Source: a virus (Duplodnaviria; Heunggongvirae; Uroviricota; Caudoviricetes). From it: a stretch of DNA of 64,000 bases. The stretch covers positions 32,001-96,000 of the IMG/VR virus record IMGVR_UViG_3300015177_000008; one strand, written 5' to 3'. The position numbers and the translations under genes were made by a program. Below, piece by piece: positions 51,744 through 56,600 of the stretch. The first letter of the stretch is position 1. Each line of letters starts with the position of its first letter. The notes under the pieces are model-generated. The model did not search any database. It was given only the letters and a program-made list of their open reading frames with translations, and was not told where the DNA came from.

Positions 51744-51997
51744 TCTAATAGGTTCCTACTTATAAAATCTGTATCAATTATATCAAACAGAGAACGGGTT
51801 TATGGCGTCATGTCAACTTTGTTCAGGGGAAAATATTGAGATCACCGAAGATAATTAGTTGTCTTATTTTGGTAAGCTGTGCTGACCATCTTTAGGTCAC
51901 ATACATGAGATGGATGGGGGTGTGGCATGAACGGATGAAATTCAGTCGCCGTTGACAGATGTCAACACTGTGAATAGAATACTATTATCGGAGGCGA

Positions 51998-52222
51998 ATG
52001 AAGCAACATCCGAATAAGCATATTCAAGCAGCCATTGACTATGCATTAAGTAAAGGCTGGATCTGGGTAGCAGCTGGTGGTGCTGCACATTGTTTTTGCA
52101 GACTGCGATGCGGTAATCCAGAAGGTGAACACAAAACTCACCAAATGAGCGTATGGTCGACTCCGGGTAATCCCGAAAACCATGCCAAACAGATCAAACG
52201 AATGGTTGATCGTTGTAAATGA
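51998..52222 (+). CDS. Small protein, possibly HicA-like toxin (tentative)
   Basis: 74 aa; LSKGW...GGAAH...STPGNP pattern loosely resembles HicA; terminator ggcggcattagccgcc follows. Confidence 0.3.
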   Translation: MKQHPNKHIQAAIDYALSKGWIWVAAGGAAHCFCRLRCGNPEGEHKTHQMSVWSTPGNPENHAKQIKRMVDRCK

Positions 52223-52282
52223 TTTCAAGGCGGCATTAGCCGCCTTTTGCAGAAACTGTCCAACTATCTTCAAAGGAAAACT

Positions 52283-52846
52283 ATGGCGCTTTATAACTTC
52301 ACTCTGACGCTCTCAGGCGTATCGTATGAGACGGAAGGACTGGAAGACGCGCTGTACCAAAACGGCTGTGACGATGCGCTAATTTGCGCATATGGAAACT
52401 CCGTCTATGTAGAATTTGACCGCGAAGCACAATCACTTGATGCAGCTATCGCATCTGCGGTCGACAATATTGAATCAGCCGGTATCGGTGCAATTGTTGA
52501 ATCCGTCGACTCGGCTCTTGTGGGCTTAAGCGATATCGCGGAACTGACAGACCTGTCTCGCCAGGCAGTGGCGTTGCTCAAAGACGGTAAGCGCGGAAGC
52601 GGCGACTTCCCTTGCCCTGTACAACGCATAAAAGGCCAGTCTCCTCTCTGGGATTGGGCTGATGTGGCTGAATGGCTCATGAATAACGGACGACTTAAAG
52701 AGGGCGATCAAATTGTCCAAAATGCCCGAACTTTGAGTAAATGGAATCTGGCGCTTCGAAACAGCGTCTCGAAAGATTTCAACGAAATAGAGCAAATTGC
52801 GGAGAAACTGATTAAACGCCGCAAAGATATTGCGAAATGCGCATAA
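52283..52846 (+). CDS. Hypothetical protein with helix-turn-helix-like segment (about 187 aa)
   Basis: ORF 52247-52846 trimmed to ATG 52283 (MALYNF) after SD aaaggaaaa. Confidence 0.5.
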   Translation: MALYNFTLTLSGVSYETEGLEDALYQNGCDDALICAYGNSVYVEFDREAQSLDAAIASAVDNIESAGIGAIVESVDSALVGLSDIAELTDLSRQAVALLKDGKRGSGDFPCPVQRIKGQSPLWDWADVAEWLMNNGRLKEGDQIVQNARTLSKWNLALRNSVSKDFNEIEQIAEKLIKRRKDIAKCA

Positions 52847-52847
52847 T

Positions 52848-52871
52848 GATGCCCGCCAATTGGCGGGCATC
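52848..52871 (+). terminator. Hairpin terminator-like element
   Basis: gatgcccgccaattggcgggcatc directly after the stop of 52283-52846. Confidence 0.45.
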
Positions 52872-53175
52872 TGTTCTCTGTAAAGGTGTCTGGCATCGTC
52901 TGGTTCGTTAACGTTTACTAAACCAATGGTGACAAAAATTAGTTATCTTTGAAAAATAAAGGTTGCATGAAAAGAAGGGGTATGCGTTAATAGCATCGTT
53001 GGTTTGCAAGACAGACCTTATGTAAGCAGTTTTAGTAAAGCAGTCTCAGTTCAGTGTTATCTTCTGATTTCCCTTCTTCGTGAGTCTCCTCCTTAAGTGC
53101 CTAAGTAAGTCCCAATCTATACAGATCAAATTCTCGCCGCACTATGTGGCTCACAAAATTAAGAAGGTAATATCT

Positions 53176-53391
53176 ATGTCTAATAAAATGACTGGTTTAG
53201 TAAAATGGTTTAACTCTGATAAAGGCTTTGGCTTTATTTCTCCTGCTGATGGCAGTAAAGATGTTTTTGTACATTTTTCGGCAATTCAGAGTAATAATTT
53301 CCGCACTTTGGAAGAAGGCCAGCAGGTCGAATTCTCTATCGAGAATGGGGCTAAAGGCCCAGCAGCAGCAAATGTCGTTGCTCTAAGCTGA
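53176..53391 (+). CDS. cspA: Cold-shock protein, CspA family
   Basis: [38 protein letters not shown] with RNP1/RNP2 motifs; long 5' leader upstream. Confidence 0.85.
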
Positions 53392-53667
53392 TTCAACGCT
53401 GATGATCCTCATTTCTACAATAACGAAGACGGTGTAAGCCTGAGTGGATAGATTTGTAGGATTGTACAAGTTGAATAAATTAGCATGGTAAGGCCATGCT
53501 AATTAAATCGACACAACGGCCAGTTTATTCCATAAAAGTGAATTGCCCATTGTGGCGAAATGCGGGGTTGCCGCATGAATAGTCAAAGGCAGAAGCTAAC
53601 TGCCGGCATGGCAAAACAAAGTGCGTAAGAGGAGTGACTTCCTCAACAAGCGCCATAATTCTTTATA

Positions 53668-53694: not shown

Positions 53695-56600
53695 TTACTT
53701 ATTTATTGTCTCCGCGATATCAGCCAGAATGGCCTCCAGTCGCTCTCCTTCTTCCGGTCGGAAGTACAGGATATTCGGGTTAAATCCGTAGAAGACGGTT
53801 GCATCAAGCTCTGGGAAGTACTCCTTACGACCAATCAGATCTGATGGTTTACTCTTATTGTTAAATAGTGCGGTTGAACGACTACCACACGTCAAAATGT
53901 AGGTTGGTCGTACAAGATTAATTTCTTCCCGCATAAAGTCTGTGAACTGGCCTATCTCGTCTTTGGTATAGTCTTTCTCTTTGTCCTTAACCTTCTTACA
54001 AACACCCGTGACATAAAGATCGCCCATGCGCAGATCTCCAACTGTCAGTAGTTTTGCCTTAAAGTCGTCGTATCCGTTCTCCATGAAGTAGCCGGTACGA
54101 GCGTCATTGCCGTTCGCATTGTCCAGAATGATCATGATTTTGGGTTTAATACCAATAGTCGGGCGTATCAACTCCTCACCCAAGCCCATTTCAGCCGCCA
54201 TACGTGTCATGAGTACGTTGATTTCGGCAGAACGCTTAGGATTCATTTCGAACGGACGTGATGCTTTAACAGCGTCAATGATGAGATTGCCCATCAGCTC
54301 AGCCTGGTCGCGCAGTCGTTCAGGATCAGTTGCTGGCAGACTGCCTGGCTCAATTGACGCAAAAGCCCCTACTTTATGAAGCGACTCGCGTACACGACTG
54401 TTACATGCACGCTTCTCGACCGCTTCATCGAATTGTGCCACTGACTCGAATTTGCCACCAACTTTCTCACGCGCACGCATAATTGCCTGACAACCATTTT
54501 CAGAACAGCCTTTCACAGCAGAGAATGGCGCATACAGTGCCTGACTGCCGTCTTCGAGTGTGCGGATCTCAATTCGGTTAGATGACACATTAACGTCTGG
54601 TGGCAATACGCGAATGCCATAGGTCAGCGCATCCTTCACCAGCCCCTGATGCTTATCCTCGCCCAGAATGGTGAGCGCAGCTGCGAAGAACTCAGCAGGG
54701 TAGTGCGTCTTTAGCCACATAGACTGATAACTGATTAAAGAATAAGCAACGGAGTGTGATTTATTGAACTGATAGGCTCCGTTTTTCTCAAATGCGGTCC
54801 AGATCTCCTTCGCTTTCATCTCTGATAGCCCTGGATGTGACGCTGTAACGCGTACTGCGTTTATAGGTAGTTTTGCGCCGTGCTCAAGTGCCTCTTCGAC
54901 AGTTTTCAGAGTTCCGTCTTCGCATTTAAAATGTTCCGCACGGTGAATGCGCTGTGTAGTGCCATCTTCCAGCTCAACGTCTATCCAGCCAGCTTGAGCC
55001 TGAACGATGAACTTCTCGCCCATGCTCTTCATTTTTTCCATGTTCTTCTTACCGATTGCGGAACGCACAGCGTCAGCTTCAGCCATTGTGAAGCCGGCAA
55101 GCAATCGAGTCGCGTTCATCGTCTGTTCCTGATAGAGAATCACGCCATTTGTTTCCGCGGTAAGTTTATCAAGAACGGGGTGTAATGATTCCGGCGTCAT
55201 AAAGCCTTTGGCGACAGAAACATAGTCATCCAACATGCCTGATTGAATTGGCCCCGGCCGGAAGAGCGCAGTTGTAGCGACGACCGTTTTAAAGCTCATT
55301 GGCTCAATTCCACCACCTAAATCTTTAAGCAGCTTGCGCATTGGGCCTGATTCAAGCTGGAAAACACCTTGAGTGTACCCAGCAGCAAAACCATCCAGCA
55401 CCTTGCGATCTTCAAGAGAAATGGCATCAAGATTGATATCTTCACCTGTGTTCTCTTTTATGTAGCGTTTTGCACTATCGAGCAAATCGAGAGTTGCCAG
55501 GCCAAGCACGTCCAGCTTAATTAGGCCCATAGCCTCGCAGTAACGCTTGTCAAATGCGATACAACGCGCGTCACCACGGCGCTCAACCGGTGTACGTTCT
55601 GTCAGAGGAACACCTGCTACGATCATCCCTGCCGCATGTCTACCAAAGCCACGCATAAGGCTTTGTAACTTGCAGGCTGCATTGAATGCATCAGGATATT
55701 TTGTTGCGTATTTGTCGAGACTTGCCAGTTGTTCGCGCAGTTCTTCCAATGGAAGGCTATCATCCTCAGCGTTCTTCAGTTCTTTTGATACCGCCATATC
55801 TGCGGACTCCACACCATAAATACGAGCGGTGTCACGTAGTGCAGAGGCTGCGCCCAGGTAGGTGAAGTTCGGAATGCCTGCAACGTAATCTTCGCCGTAG
55901 CGTTCATTCAGATACTCGATCACCTCATGGCGACGTGCCTGGCTGAAGTCCAAATCCGCATCTGGCAAGTCGAGACGCTCAGGGTTGATGAAACGCTCAA
56001 ACAGAAGACCGTGACGGATTGGGTCGACGTTGGTTATGCCTATGCACCACGCCACCAGAGAACCGGCAGAGGAACCACGACCAGGCCCAACGGGAATGCC
56101 AGTTTCACGACTATGATTCATCAGATCGCGCACCATCAGGAAGTAACCACAGAATCCCAGGCGAGTCAGCGTGTCCATTTCGTACTTTAGCCGCTCAACA
56201 TAAACCCTGTTCTCAGAAGCAGGTGGTGTGTATCCAAACTCTTTTGTGGTAAGACGTTTACGCAGCCCTGCAACAGCCAGTTTCATAAGCGTTGCAGGCT
56301 CGTCGTCTGCCATCTTTGGCAGTGCTGGCGGCAATTCATGCCAGCGCCATGTGCAGGCATCGATAATGGTATCCTGCGTTGTTGAGGCCATTGCAGCTGT
56401 TACCGGCACATCCATGCGAACGGAGAAGGCTTTAAGCGCCTCAAGGAGATGGCGGCGACCATTGACGGCGTTATCTCGCTGGTGGGGGATACGCAGACGA
56501 TGCGGCTGGTCGATTTTGATGTTGTTCGTAACCATGTGCGCAATGTCTTTAATGTCTGCATCGTCGATCGATTCGTAATAAGCGGGATAGAACGCCACTG

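What the first reader, a model, noticed from the sequence alone, without database searches (positions are those of the whole stretch)
51998..52846. Possible toxin-antitoxin-like pair (HicA-like small protein followed by an HTH protein)
A 74-aa ORF with a loose HicA-like pattern (LSKGW...GGAAH...STPGNP) is followed 60 bp downstream by a co-oriented 187-aa ORF with a helix-turn-helix-like segment. The pair is bracketed by hairpin terminators and opposes the flanking genes. The assignment is weak.
Basis: inference. Interest (0 to 1): 0.35.

Follow-up and report, generated by a model that had tools for sequence, protein, structure and literature searches.

The report
HicA-fold toxin–antitoxin-like pair on phage-plasmid
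A small two-gene operon on an E. coli phage-plasmid looks like a self-repressing toxin–antitoxin or candidate anti-phage module whose small protein has the shape, but not the sequence, of the HicA RNA-cutting toxin, while its partner is not the usual HicB antitoxin; it is an untested variant of a familiar kind of system.

Summary
Both ORFs are real: A is 51998-52222 (74 aa) and B is 52283-52846 (187 aa). The window is about 99.7% identical to E. coli LF82 phage-plasmid Cyrano (SSU5-like). There the genes are annotated HicA/HicB and are transcribed in the lysogen.

Neither protein matches Pfam or NCBIfam HicA/HicB profiles. Both match PADLOC's untested candidate defence pair PDC-M06A/B.

B is not HicB. 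It has a ferredoxin-like N-domain, an AlpA-like winged HTH and a helical hairpin.

Comparative evidence favours a type II toxin–antitoxin logic:
- A-then-B order is kept in very different contexts.
- A is basic and B is acidic.
- A perfect GTTGAC-N4-GTCAAC palindrome overlies the -35 in 68 of 73 loci.
- A has been inactivated independently many times with B intact. In the only A-seeded sample (59 viral loci) a B relative always followed A.

Toxicity, RNase activity and DNA binding remain untested. I rate it a new variant of a known kind, of moderate interest.

The parts
51951..51966 (.). Candidate operator: perfect palindrome GTTGAC-AGAT-GTCAAC overlapping the -35 hexamer
   Evidence: it is the only copy in the 64-kb window, against 0.11 expected; the same GTTGAC-N4-GTCAAC, with a variable spacer, lies 36-67 bp upstream of A's start in 68 of 73 genome loci whose flanks are unrelated. 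There are 73 occurrences in 997 kb, nearly all at this site. It is retained upstream of B in 3 of the 7 loci with no A match, and upstream of some truncated A remnants (e.g. L066, L069). Binding by B is inferred.
51952..51980 (+). Sigma-70-like promoter: -35 TTGACA (51952-51957), 17-bp spacer, -10 TAGAAT (51975-51980)
   Evidence: 11 of 12 matches. PMC9928086 reports both genes transcribed in the LF82 lysogen at 30x and 14x the local prophage background.
51990..51994 (+). Shine-Dalgarno GGAGG for gene A
   Evidence: Sequence. The ...CGGAGGCGAATG context recurs in many homologous loci.
51998..52222 (+). Gene A: 74-aa basic protein with a HicA-like (alpha-beta-beta-beta-alpha) fold; the putative toxin
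52227..52246 (+). Intercistronic hairpin AAGGCGGC-ATTA-GCCGCCTT followed by TTTT (a possible partial terminator or mRNA 3' stabiliser)
   Evidence: a stable hairpin starts just after A's stop in 52 of 58 distinct intergenic regions of 45 nt or more (median z -2.5), with different stem sequences. It is absent where the two genes abut.
52283..52846 (+). Gene B: 187-aa acidic DNA-binding protein; the putative antitoxin and autorepressor
   Evidence: PDC-M06B, 1e-32; phrog_2620, 2e-105; pLDDT 82; median pI 4.7.
52283..52513 (+). B residues 1-77: ferredoxin-like beta-alpha-beta-beta-alpha-beta domain (proposed A-binding domain)
52517..52687 (+). B residues about 79-135: divergent AlpA/excisionase/MerR-type winged helix-turn-helix
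   Evidence: sub-family PHROG hits to excisionase/regulator families over residues 71-150; 11 of 66 homologues give weak Phage_AlpA hits. NCBI names include 'AlpA family transcriptional regulator'. The model is low-confidence here (pLDDT 54-63).
52709..52840 (+). B residues 143-186: C-terminal helical hairpin (proposed dimerisation element)
   Evidence: H143-162 and H166-186, pLDDT 83-95. The dimerisation role is inferred from the two-fold symmetric operator.
52848..52871 (+). Intrinsic-terminator-like hairpin ending the operon
   Evidence: 10-bp stem with 8 G-C pairs, loop of 4, T-rich tail.

Best explanation
This is an autonomous, self-repressing two-gene toxin-antitoxin-like module. It corresponds to PADLOC's candidate PDC-M06 and is carried as an accessory (moron) operon of the SSU5-like phage-plasmid Cyrano/pLF82.

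Gene A encodes a small basic protein with the dsRBD-like alpha-beta3-alpha fold of HicA. I propose that it binds and cleaves RNA using a face formed by three elements: the N-terminus of helix 1 (H4, K7), the beta1-beta2 turn (H31, at the position of HicA's catalytic His) and the N-terminus of helix 2 (H62). I also propose that a Cys/His zinc site stabilises the fold, using C38, H45/H48 and C73 in this protein and C38, C48, C73 and often a C-x-H histidine in the wider family.

Gene B encodes an acidic three-part protein.
- Its N-terminal ferredoxin-like domain is proposed to bind and mask A.
- Its winged HTH, as a dimer held by the C-terminal helical hairpin, is proposed to bind the GTTGAC-N4-GTCAAC palindrome over the -35 and repress the operon.

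If B stops being made, through plasmid loss or shut-off during a superinfecting phage's attack, free A would arrest the cell. This would give plasmid addiction, abortive infection, or both.

Shown here: the gene anatomy, the folds (predicted), conservation of the pair and of the operator, charge asymmetry, and asymmetric gene loss. Shown by others: transcription in the lysogen. Inferred: toxicity, RNase activity, zinc binding, the A-B contact, operator binding and the biological role.
For: Identity and expression.
- The window is 99.7% identical to phage-plasmid Cyrano.
- CYRAN_51 (A) and CYRAN_50 (B) are 30x and 14x above local background in the lysogen transcriptome (PMC9928086).

Fold of A.
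- The AF2 model has pLDDT 88 with elements H7-18, E22-25, E32-37, E49-53 and H59-72.
- hhalign aligns A residues 12-34 colinearly with HicA 6-28. The G-W motifs match and H31 falls one residue from the catalytic His.
- H31 is conserved in 96% of 141 diverse relatives.

TA hallmarks.
- The toxin gene comes first, as in hicAB.
- Median pI is 9.5 for A and 4.7 for B.
- A lies directly upstream of B in 73 of 80 genome loci found through B. B lies directly downstream of A in 59 of 59 viral loci found through A.
- Contexts are otherwise unrelated: SSU5-like plasmids, a Providencia chromosomal housekeeping region, and a P4-like island beside a RelE-type TA.
- At least ten independent inactivations of A (deletions, truncations, frameshifts) have B intact. 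Many of them keep the operator. No intact A without a B relative was seen.

Operator.
- A perfect palindrome overlies the -35 in 68 of 73 loci, with a variable spacer. Half-site centres are 10 bp apart.

Defence link.
- Both proteins match PDC-M06 HMMs. Those cassettes were defined by being embedded in BREX, DISARM, type I RM or Hma systems.
Against: - No sequence profile links A to HicA. Pfam and NCBIfam are negative for A and for 141 relatives. hhalign probability is only 12%. A PDB profile search finds no HicA.
- Foldseek found nothing significant.
- H31 could be a metal ligand rather than a catalytic residue.
- B has no recognisable antitoxin domain.
- A's mRNA is more abundant than B's in the lysogen, and a terminator-like hairpin sits between the genes. 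That is an awkward arrangement for keeping the antitoxin in excess.
- The PDC systems are explicitly untested.
Confidence: 0.6

Rival explanations
1. It is a bona fide member of the HicAB family, as the public Cyrano record annotates it: a HicA mRNA interferase neutralised by a HicB antitoxin.
For: - The record's annotation says so and the paper repeats it.
- The toxin gene comes first.
- The HicA family is so diverse that an E. coli HicA profile does not find the other PDB HicAs either.
Against: - The HicA_toxin profile is not matched by A or by any of 141 relatives.
- B's DNA-binding domain is AlpA-like rather than RHH or Xre.
- A carries extra conserved Cys/His residues not seen in the PDB HicA sequences aligned here.
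Confidence: 0.1
2. The pair works mainly as an anti-phage abortive-infection or defence system that the phage-plasmid gives its host (PDC-M06), rather than as a plasmid-addiction module. The molecular logic may still be toxin plus antitoxin.
For: - Both proteins match PADLOC PDC-M06A/B.
- PDC cassettes were defined by embedding inside BREX, DISARM, type I RM or Hma loci.
- One homologue sits in the cargo region of a P4-like satellite next to another TA. The Providencia copy lies about 5 kb from a variable region with a restriction enzyme and a reverse-transcriptase gene.
- The pair is expressed in lysogeny like other prophage morons.
Against: - The PDCs are untested, and no paper mentioning PDC-M06 was found.
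- In E. coli the pair is found only on SSU5-like plasmids. It occurs in 110 of 5,426 complete genomes and never on a chromosome. That fits a plasmid-maintenance role at least as well.
- A DefenseFinder survey of SSU5 phage-plasmids does not mention HicA.
Confidence: 0.3
3. It is a non-toxic regulatory pair. B would be a ligand- or partner-responsive repressor with an ACT/RAM-like sensor domain. A would be a small zinc-binding co-regulator or nucleic-acid-binding protein.
For: - B's N-domain most resembles RAM, ACT and HMA regulatory or ligand-binding domains.
- A has a zinc-site-like Cys/His pattern.
- No toxin profile matches A.
- A's mRNA exceeds B's.
Against: - A is repeatedly lost or broken while B and the operator persist. 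No intact A without B was seen in 59 A-seeded loci. A mere co-regulator would not be expected to show this asymmetry.
- The pair moves as a unit between unrelated contexts with no conserved target genes nearby.
- The palindrome occurs once in the window, at the pair's own promoter.
Confidence: 0.12
4. B is an excisionase or recombination directionality factor, as the PHROG family label says, and A is an unrelated small phage protein.
For: B matches phrog_2620, 'excisionase and transcriptional regulator', at 2e-105, and weaker excisionase PHROGs. Some relatives give weak Phage_AlpA hits.
Against: - Cyrano replicates as a plasmid, at about 5.5 copies per cell.
- No integrase adjoins the pair in the SSU5-like plasmids or in Providencia chromosomes.
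- B is 187 aa with two additional domains.
- The conserved binding-site candidate is its own promoter.
- The strict A-B linkage would be left unexplained.
Confidence: 0.03

Closest known systems
HicAB type II toxin-antitoxin systems (HicA: COG1724 / Pfam PF07927; HicB: COG1598/4226)
   Same: - A near-invariant His sits at the beta1-beta2 turn, where HicA has its catalytic His.
- The toxin gene precedes the antitoxin gene, with an intergenic spacer, as in Y. pestis hicA3-hicB3.
- The antitoxin has an N-terminal globular domain and a downstream DNA-binding domain, and a palindromic site lies at the promoter.
   Different: - There is no profile-level sequence relationship.
- A has an extra conserved HPNK N-terminal motif and a Cys/His cluster suggesting zinc.
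- B's N-domain is ferredoxin-like, not a partial RNase H fold. Its DNA-binding domain is an AlpA/MerR-type winged HTH, not RHH or Xre. It also has a C-terminal helical hairpin.
PADLOC phage defence candidate PDC-M06 (A and B components)
   Same: Both proteins match the PDC-M06A (best 1.2e-19) and PDC-M06B (1.3e-32) HMMs, and they are adjacent in the A-B order.
   Different: PDC-M06 is only a bioinformatic candidate, derived from cassettes embedded in BREX, DISARM, type I RM or Hma loci, and it is untested. Here the pair is not embedded in a defence system. It sits among the replication and recombination genes of a phage-plasmid.
Other inverted-order type II TA systems with an autorepressing antitoxin (e.g. 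higBA, mqsRA)
   Same: The toxin comes first in a bicistronic operon, and the antitoxin carries the DNA-binding domain. This gene order is described. The presumed binding to a palindrome over the promoter is my inference from established knowledge of these systems.
   Different: HigB and MqsR toxins are RelE-like. A's predicted topology is not RelE-like.
Excisionase / AlpA-family winged-HTH regulators (PHROG 2620, 66 and 2790; Pfam Phage_AlpA)
   Same: B's central region is related to this class of winged HTH.
   Different: B is two to three times longer, has flanking ferredoxin-like and helical domains, has no integrase partner, and is strictly linked to A.

Membership tests
HicA toxin (Pfam PF07927 HicA_toxin / COG1724) | Significant match to the family's sequence profile | tested here: not met
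   Pfam and NCBIfam give no HicA hit at E<=10 for A. None of 141 diverse relatives hits PF07927. A profile of the A family finds no HicA in the PDB. hhalign against four PDB HicAs gives 12% probability.
HicA toxin (Pfam PF07927 HicA_toxin / COG1724) | Small single-domain protein with a dsRBD-like alpha1-beta1-beta2-beta3-alpha2 fold | tested here: met
   [not shown]
HicA toxin (Pfam PF07927 HicA_toxin / COG1724) | Catalytic histidine at the start of beta2 (His23 in E. coli, His24 in B. pseudomallei, His36 in S. pneumoniae) | tested here: inconclusive
   H31 precedes beta2, is 96% conserved, and aligns one residue away from His24 in the only colinear hhalign match. No superposition was available, and H31 could instead be a metal ligand.
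HicA toxin (Pfam PF07927 HicA_toxin / COG1724) | Ribosome-independent RNase activity, toxic when expressed alone | not testable with these tools
   This needs expression and RNA-cleavage assays.
HicB antitoxin (COG1598/4226) | N-terminal partial RNase H-fold domain that neutralises HicA | tested here: not met
   [not shown]
HicB antitoxin (COG1598/4226) | C-terminal RHH or Xre-type HTH DNA-binding domain | tested here: not met
   B's DNA-binding region matches excisionase/AlpA-type winged-HTH families only, and it is followed by a helical hairpin.
Type II toxin-antitoxin module (generic) | Two small adjacent co-oriented genes that travel together between unrelated genomic contexts | tested here: met
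   A is directly upstream of B in 73 of 80 loci, and B is directly downstream of A in 59 of 59 loci. Contexts differ.
Type II toxin-antitoxin module (generic) | Antitoxin with a DNA-binding domain and a palindromic operator at the operon promoter (autoregulation) | tested here: inconclusive
   The conserved GTTGAC-N4-GTCAAC over the -35 is present in 68 of 73 loci and is kept when A is lost. Actual binding and repression by B were not tested.
Type II toxin-antitoxin module (generic) | Asymmetric decay: the toxin gene can be lost while the antitoxin persists, but not the reverse | tested here: met
   There are at least ten independent deletions, truncations or frameshifts of A with B intact. 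No intact A lacks a B relative in 59 A-seeded loci. The genome sample was seeded on B, so only the viral sample is unbiased.
Type II toxin-antitoxin module (generic) | Toxicity of one protein, neutralised by direct binding of the other | not testable with these tools
   Only indirect support is available: basic A (median pI 9.5) against acidic B (4.7). No complex prediction was possible.
PADLOC PDC-M06 candidate defence system | Adjacent genes matching the PDC-M06A and PDC-M06B HMMs | tested here: met
   A matches six PDC-M06A models (best 1.2e-19). B matches PDC-M06B (1.3e-32).
PADLOC PDC-M06 candidate defence system | Protection against phage infection | not testable with these tools
   The authors list the 145 PDCs as untested. 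No paper mentions PDC-M06.
Excisionase / recombination directionality factor (PHROG 2620 label) | Small winged-HTH protein acting with a neighbouring integrase on an integrating element | tested here: not met
   B is 187 aa with three parts. No integrase is nearby in Cyrano, related plasmids or Providencia. The element is a plasmid-prophage.

The most novel reading that the evidence does not exclude
A represents a large family of zinc-stabilised HicA-fold toxins with no Pfam match among 141 members scanned (at least 740 clusters at 50% identity). It is paired with a previously undescribed antitoxin architecture: a ferredoxin-like domain, an AlpA-like winged HTH and a helical hairpin, with a family-wide GTTGAC-N4-GTCAAC operator. 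On SSU5-like phage-plasmids, including Y. pestis pMT1-type plasmids, the pair would act as an abortive-infection defence as well as an addiction module. That would make it a new TA and defence family rather than a HicAB variant.
Probability: 0.35. Interest if true: 0.5.

Novelty: new variant of a known kind. Interest (0 to 1): 0.35.

Why it matters
SSU5-like phage-plasmids are common in clinical Enterobacteriaceae, and Yersinia pestis plasmids also carry A (63 Yersinia records among 299 plasmid hits). This pair is one of the few genes they express during lysogeny.

If the pair is a working toxin-antitoxin or defence module, three things follow:
- It would help explain how these roughly 100-kb plasmids are stably kept, or how they protect their hosts.
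- It would give PADLOC's untested PDC-M06 a concrete mechanistic hypothesis.
- It would add a large family with no Pfam match to the HicA-fold toxins, with a different antitoxin solution.

It also corrects a public annotation: 'HicB' is not supported. The analysis supplies a precise operator and precise residues to mutate.

Tried and rejected
- Pfam and NCBIfam scans of A and B gave only noise: RuBisCO_small, CagE_TrbE_VirB and mycosin, all below their cut-offs. Scanning 141 A relatives and 66 B relatives did not change this.
- PDB sequence searches with both family profiles found nothing meaningful.
- hhalign of the A family against E. coli-type HicA gave 76% probability, but only for a 25-column non-colinear match. 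It paired A's N-terminal HPNKxI helix cap with HicA's C-terminal PRHPxxEI helix cap. I treat this as a local motif resemblance, not homology.
- The E. coli HicA profile is too narrow to be a fair test, because it does not even find the other PDB HicAs. I therefore rebuilt a profile from four PDB HicA sequences recovered from tool output.
- The search for related loci with the broad A3 alignment failed because no stretch was conserved enough. The narrower A1 alignment worked.
- A literature search for 'PDC-M06' returned nothing.
- A second palindrome over the -10 (AATAG-AATA-CTATT) is visible in the window sequence but is not conserved in other loci, so I dropped it.
- I rejected the excisionase reading of B and the canonical HicB reading (see the rivals).
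- My automatic count of T-tails after the intercistronic hairpin was unreliable. By eye, some lineages have a T-run and others do not.
Full report
**What is there**

The window is 99.7% identical, over the region examined, to Escherichia phage Cyrano (OV696614). Cyrano is the SSU5-like phage-plasmid pLF82 of adherent-invasive E. coli LF82.

The finding covers two co-oriented plus-strand genes:
- A at 51998-52222, 74 aa.
- B at 52283-52846, 187 aa, counted from the ATG that all homologues use.

The operon anatomy, in order:
- A strong sigma-70-like promoter, TTGACA-17-TAGAAT, at 51952-51980.
- A perfect 16-bp palindrome, GTTGACAGATGTCAAC, at 51951-51966, overlying the -35.
- An 8-bp GC-rich hairpin followed by TTTT directly after A's stop, at 52227-52246.
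- A 10-bp terminator hairpin directly after B's stop, at 52848-52871.

The neighbours on the minus strand are a UvsY-like gene and dnaE. A cold-shock gene on the plus strand lies between B and dnaE. There is no terminator upstream of A, and one neighbouring gene is co-oriented.

**What the databases call it**

- The Cyrano record names the genes 'HicA toxin protein' and 'putative antitoxin HicB'.
- The accompanying paper lists both genes among the few transcribed in the lysogen, at 30x and 14x the local background. It did no functional test (PMC9928086).
- RefSeq calls them 'hypothetical protein' and 'helix-turn-helix transcriptional regulator' or 'AlpA family transcriptional regulator'.
- Pfam and NCBIfam give no HicA or HicB hit even at E<=10.
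- PHROGs places A in an unknown-function family and B in 'excisionase and transcriptional regulator'.
- PADLOC-DB matches both proteins: A to PDC-M06A (1.2e-19) and B to PDC-M06B (1.3e-32).

PDC systems are 145 untested candidates. They were picked because the cassettes occur embedded inside BREX, DISARM, type I RM or Hma loci (bioRxiv 10.1101/2024.01.29.577857). No paper mentions PDC-M06.

**Protein A**

Family size:
- 55 close homologues in Enterobacterales and a few other Gammaproteobacteria.
- In an exhaustive HMM search, 740 clusters at 50% identity with E<=1e-3, and 272 with E<=1e-10.
- None of 141 diverse members hits any relevant Pfam family, so the family appears to lack a Pfam model.

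Fold:
- The AlphaFold model (pLDDT 88) is alpha1 (7-18), beta1 (22-25), beta2 (32-37), a short helical turn, beta3 (49-53) and alpha2 (59-72). This is the dsRBD-like topology that defines HicA.
- Foldseek against the PDB was uninformative.

Sequence link to HicA:
- Against a profile of four PDB HicAs, hhalign gives 12% probability for a colinear 23-column match. In it the G-W at the end of helix 1 coincides and H31 falls one residue from the catalytic His.
- Against the narrow E. coli-type HicA profile, hhalign finds only a non-colinear helix-cap resemblance.

Conserved residues in the broad family:

| Position | Conservation |
|---|---|
| H4 | 96% |
| K7 | 87% |
| W21 | 97% |
| H31 | 96% |
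| C38 | 98% |
| 48 | Cys 72%, His 21% |
| T55-P56 | 96-97% |
| H62 | 79% |
| C73 | 87% |
| two residues after C73 | His 47% |

I draw two inferences from this pattern.
- First, the Cys/His interchange at position 48 points to a structural zinc site rather than a disulfide. C38 and position 48 flank the beta2-beta3 hairpin, and C73 lies at the end of alpha2.
- Second, H4/K7, H31 and H62 fall on the three elements that bind RNA in dsRBD folds: the helix 1 N-terminus, the beta1-beta2 loop and the helix 2 N-terminus. This rests on established knowledge of dsRBDs. I propose these residues as the active face.

**Protein B**

The model (pLDDT 82) has three parts:
- A confident beta-alpha-beta-beta-alpha-beta domain (residues 1-77).
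- A poorly modelled region (about 79-135) that contains the HTH.
- A confident C-terminal helical hairpin (143-186).

Evidence that B is not HicB:
- HicB is defined by a partial RNase H-fold N-domain plus an RHH or Xre HTH.
- hhalign of the B family against HicB N-domains from 6hpb, 5yrz and 4p78 gives 0.3% probability.
- No HicB Pfam family is hit by 66 B relatives.

The HTH is of the AlpA/excisionase/MerR winged type. The evidence is weak PHROG and Phage_AlpA matches. B's three-part layout resembles HicB in plan only.

**Comparative genomics: the strongest evidence**

Linkage:
- Searching one genome per species for B gave 80 loci. In 73 of them A lies immediately upstream on the same strand.
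- Searching viral contigs for A gave 59 loci. In all 59 a B relative follows immediately, even when A is only 41-44% identical and B 29-44% identical.

Varied contexts:
- The same slot between recombination and replication genes in SSU5-like plasmids of Enterobacter, Citrobacter, Klebsiella and Yersinia pestis.
- An isolated pair between housekeeping genes in Providencia.
- The cargo region of a P4-like island, next to a RelE/HTH toxin-antitoxin, in Prodigiosinella.
- In E. coli, 110 of 5,426 complete genomes carry it, always on plasmids; those listed are about 106-115 kb.

Charge: A is basic (median pI 9.5) and B is acidic (4.7).

Operator:
- GTTGAC-N4-GTCAAC, with invariant arms and a free spacer, lies 36-67 bp (mode 47) upstream of A's start in 68 of 73 loci, although the surrounding DNA is unalignable.
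- There are 73 occurrences in 997 kb, essentially all at this position.
- There is a single occurrence in the 64-kb window, against 0.11 expected.
- Half-site centres are 10 bp apart. That fits a dimer bound to one face of the DNA over the -35.

Asymmetric decay of A:
- Seven loci have no A match and about six have a broken A, all with full-length B.
- Inspection shows independent events:
  - a near-complete deletion of A in L011;
  - truncations after 10 codons (L039) and 21 codons (L066);
  - an N-terminal deletion (L069);
  - four different frameshifts (L019, L031, L079, L081);
  - two loci where the operator remains upstream of B but A is gone (L015, L038).
- No intact A without B was seen.

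Loss of the first gene but never of the second alone is what a toxin and its antidote predict.

**Mechanism proposed**

A is a HicA-fold, probably zinc-stabilised, RNA-binding endoribonuclease toxin. B neutralises it through its N-terminal domain. As a dimer, B also represses the operon at the palindrome. Loss of B supply would free A. The biological role would be plasmid addiction, abortive infection, or both.

- Shown here or by others: anatomy, predicted folds, conservation, and expression.
- Inferred: toxicity, catalysis, zinc binding, the A-B contact, and operator binding.
- Overall confidence is about 0.6.

Points against:
- There is no sequence-profile link to any toxin family.
- A's mRNA exceeds B's.
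- A terminator-like hairpin lies between the genes.

That hairpin is itself conserved as a structure. It is present in 52 of 58 distinct spacers of 45 nt or more, with a median z of -2.5 and different stem sequences. It is absent where the genes abut. Its function is unexplained.

**Rivals**

| Rival | Confidence | Main reason |
|---|---|---|
| True HicAB | about 0.1 | Fails on the profiles and on every HicB feature |
| Primarily a defence system | about 0.3; not exclusive of the main model | Rests on the PADLOC match and island contexts; the E. coli copies are exclusively plasmid-borne |
| Non-toxic regulatory pair | about 0.12 | Does not explain the asymmetric decay |
| Excisionase | about 0.03 | Contradicted by size, context and the self-promoter site |

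**Comparison and novelty**

The pair works like an inverted-order type II toxin-antitoxin of the HicAB kind. By the tests above it is not a member of the HicA or HicB families. It is a member of the untested PADLOC candidate PDC-M06. I rate it a new variant of a known kind.

It is of moderate interest (0.35). It is not surprising to a specialist. It does correct a public annotation, it defines an operator and candidate catalytic and metal-binding residues, and it makes PDC-M06 directly testable.

Noticed in passing
window 52998-53416 (+), with the CDS at 53176-53391: A complete cspA-type thermoregulator mRNA is present (Rfam RF01766, 185.7 bits, E 7.6e-51). It carries a 71-aa cold-shock-domain protein gene (Pfam CSD, 1.4e-33) and has a promoter-like site at 52929-52957. 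The public Cyrano record has no CDS annotated here, between CYRAN_50 and CYRAN_49.
   Followed up: partly
window 52227-52246, and the A-B spacers of loci L002-L150: A stable hairpin lies immediately after A's stop codon in 52 of 58 distinct spacers of 45 nt or more, although the stem sequences differ. Some are followed by a T-run and others are not. Lineages whose genes abut lack it. It may be a partial terminator or a 3' stabiliser that sets the A:B ratio.
   Followed up: partly
L082-L085 (Enterobacter SSU5-like plasmids), compared with window 53695-57213 (-): In the related plasmids the Pol III alpha gene is split by an HNH/NUMOD4 homing-endonuclease ORF, whereas the window has one 1172-aa ORF. 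Their RecA carries an intein (Intein_splicing plus LAGLIDADG). A 214-aa ORF with no Pfam hit follows B there, where the window has the cold-shock gene.
   Followed up: no
window 51998-52054 (A residues 1-19): A's N-terminal HPNKxIxxA helix cap aligns with the C-terminal PRHPxxEIxxxL helix cap of E. coli-type HicA. hhalign gives 76% probability over 25 columns, but the match is non-colinear. I treat it as an unexplained local resemblance.
   Followed up: partly
L040 (Enterobacter pulveris), upstream of A: Two tandem copies of the GTTGAC-N4-GTCAAC palindrome lie 24 bp apart, start to start, ahead of the A gene, instead of the usual single copy.
   Followed up: no
L005 and L125-L132 (Yersinia pestis pMT1-like and related loci): In this lineage the right half-site of the palindrome is degenerate (L005: GTTGACACGCGCTCAC), yet both genes are intact. 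This may reflect a shifted operator specificity or relaxed repression.
   Followed up: no
H16: NZ_CP073940.1, E. coli MB53 plasmid, 15875-16502: This plasmid matches only 61% of the query at 86.7% identity. Only the HTH regulator is annotated under the match, so it may be another A-less copy in E. coli.
   Followed up: no
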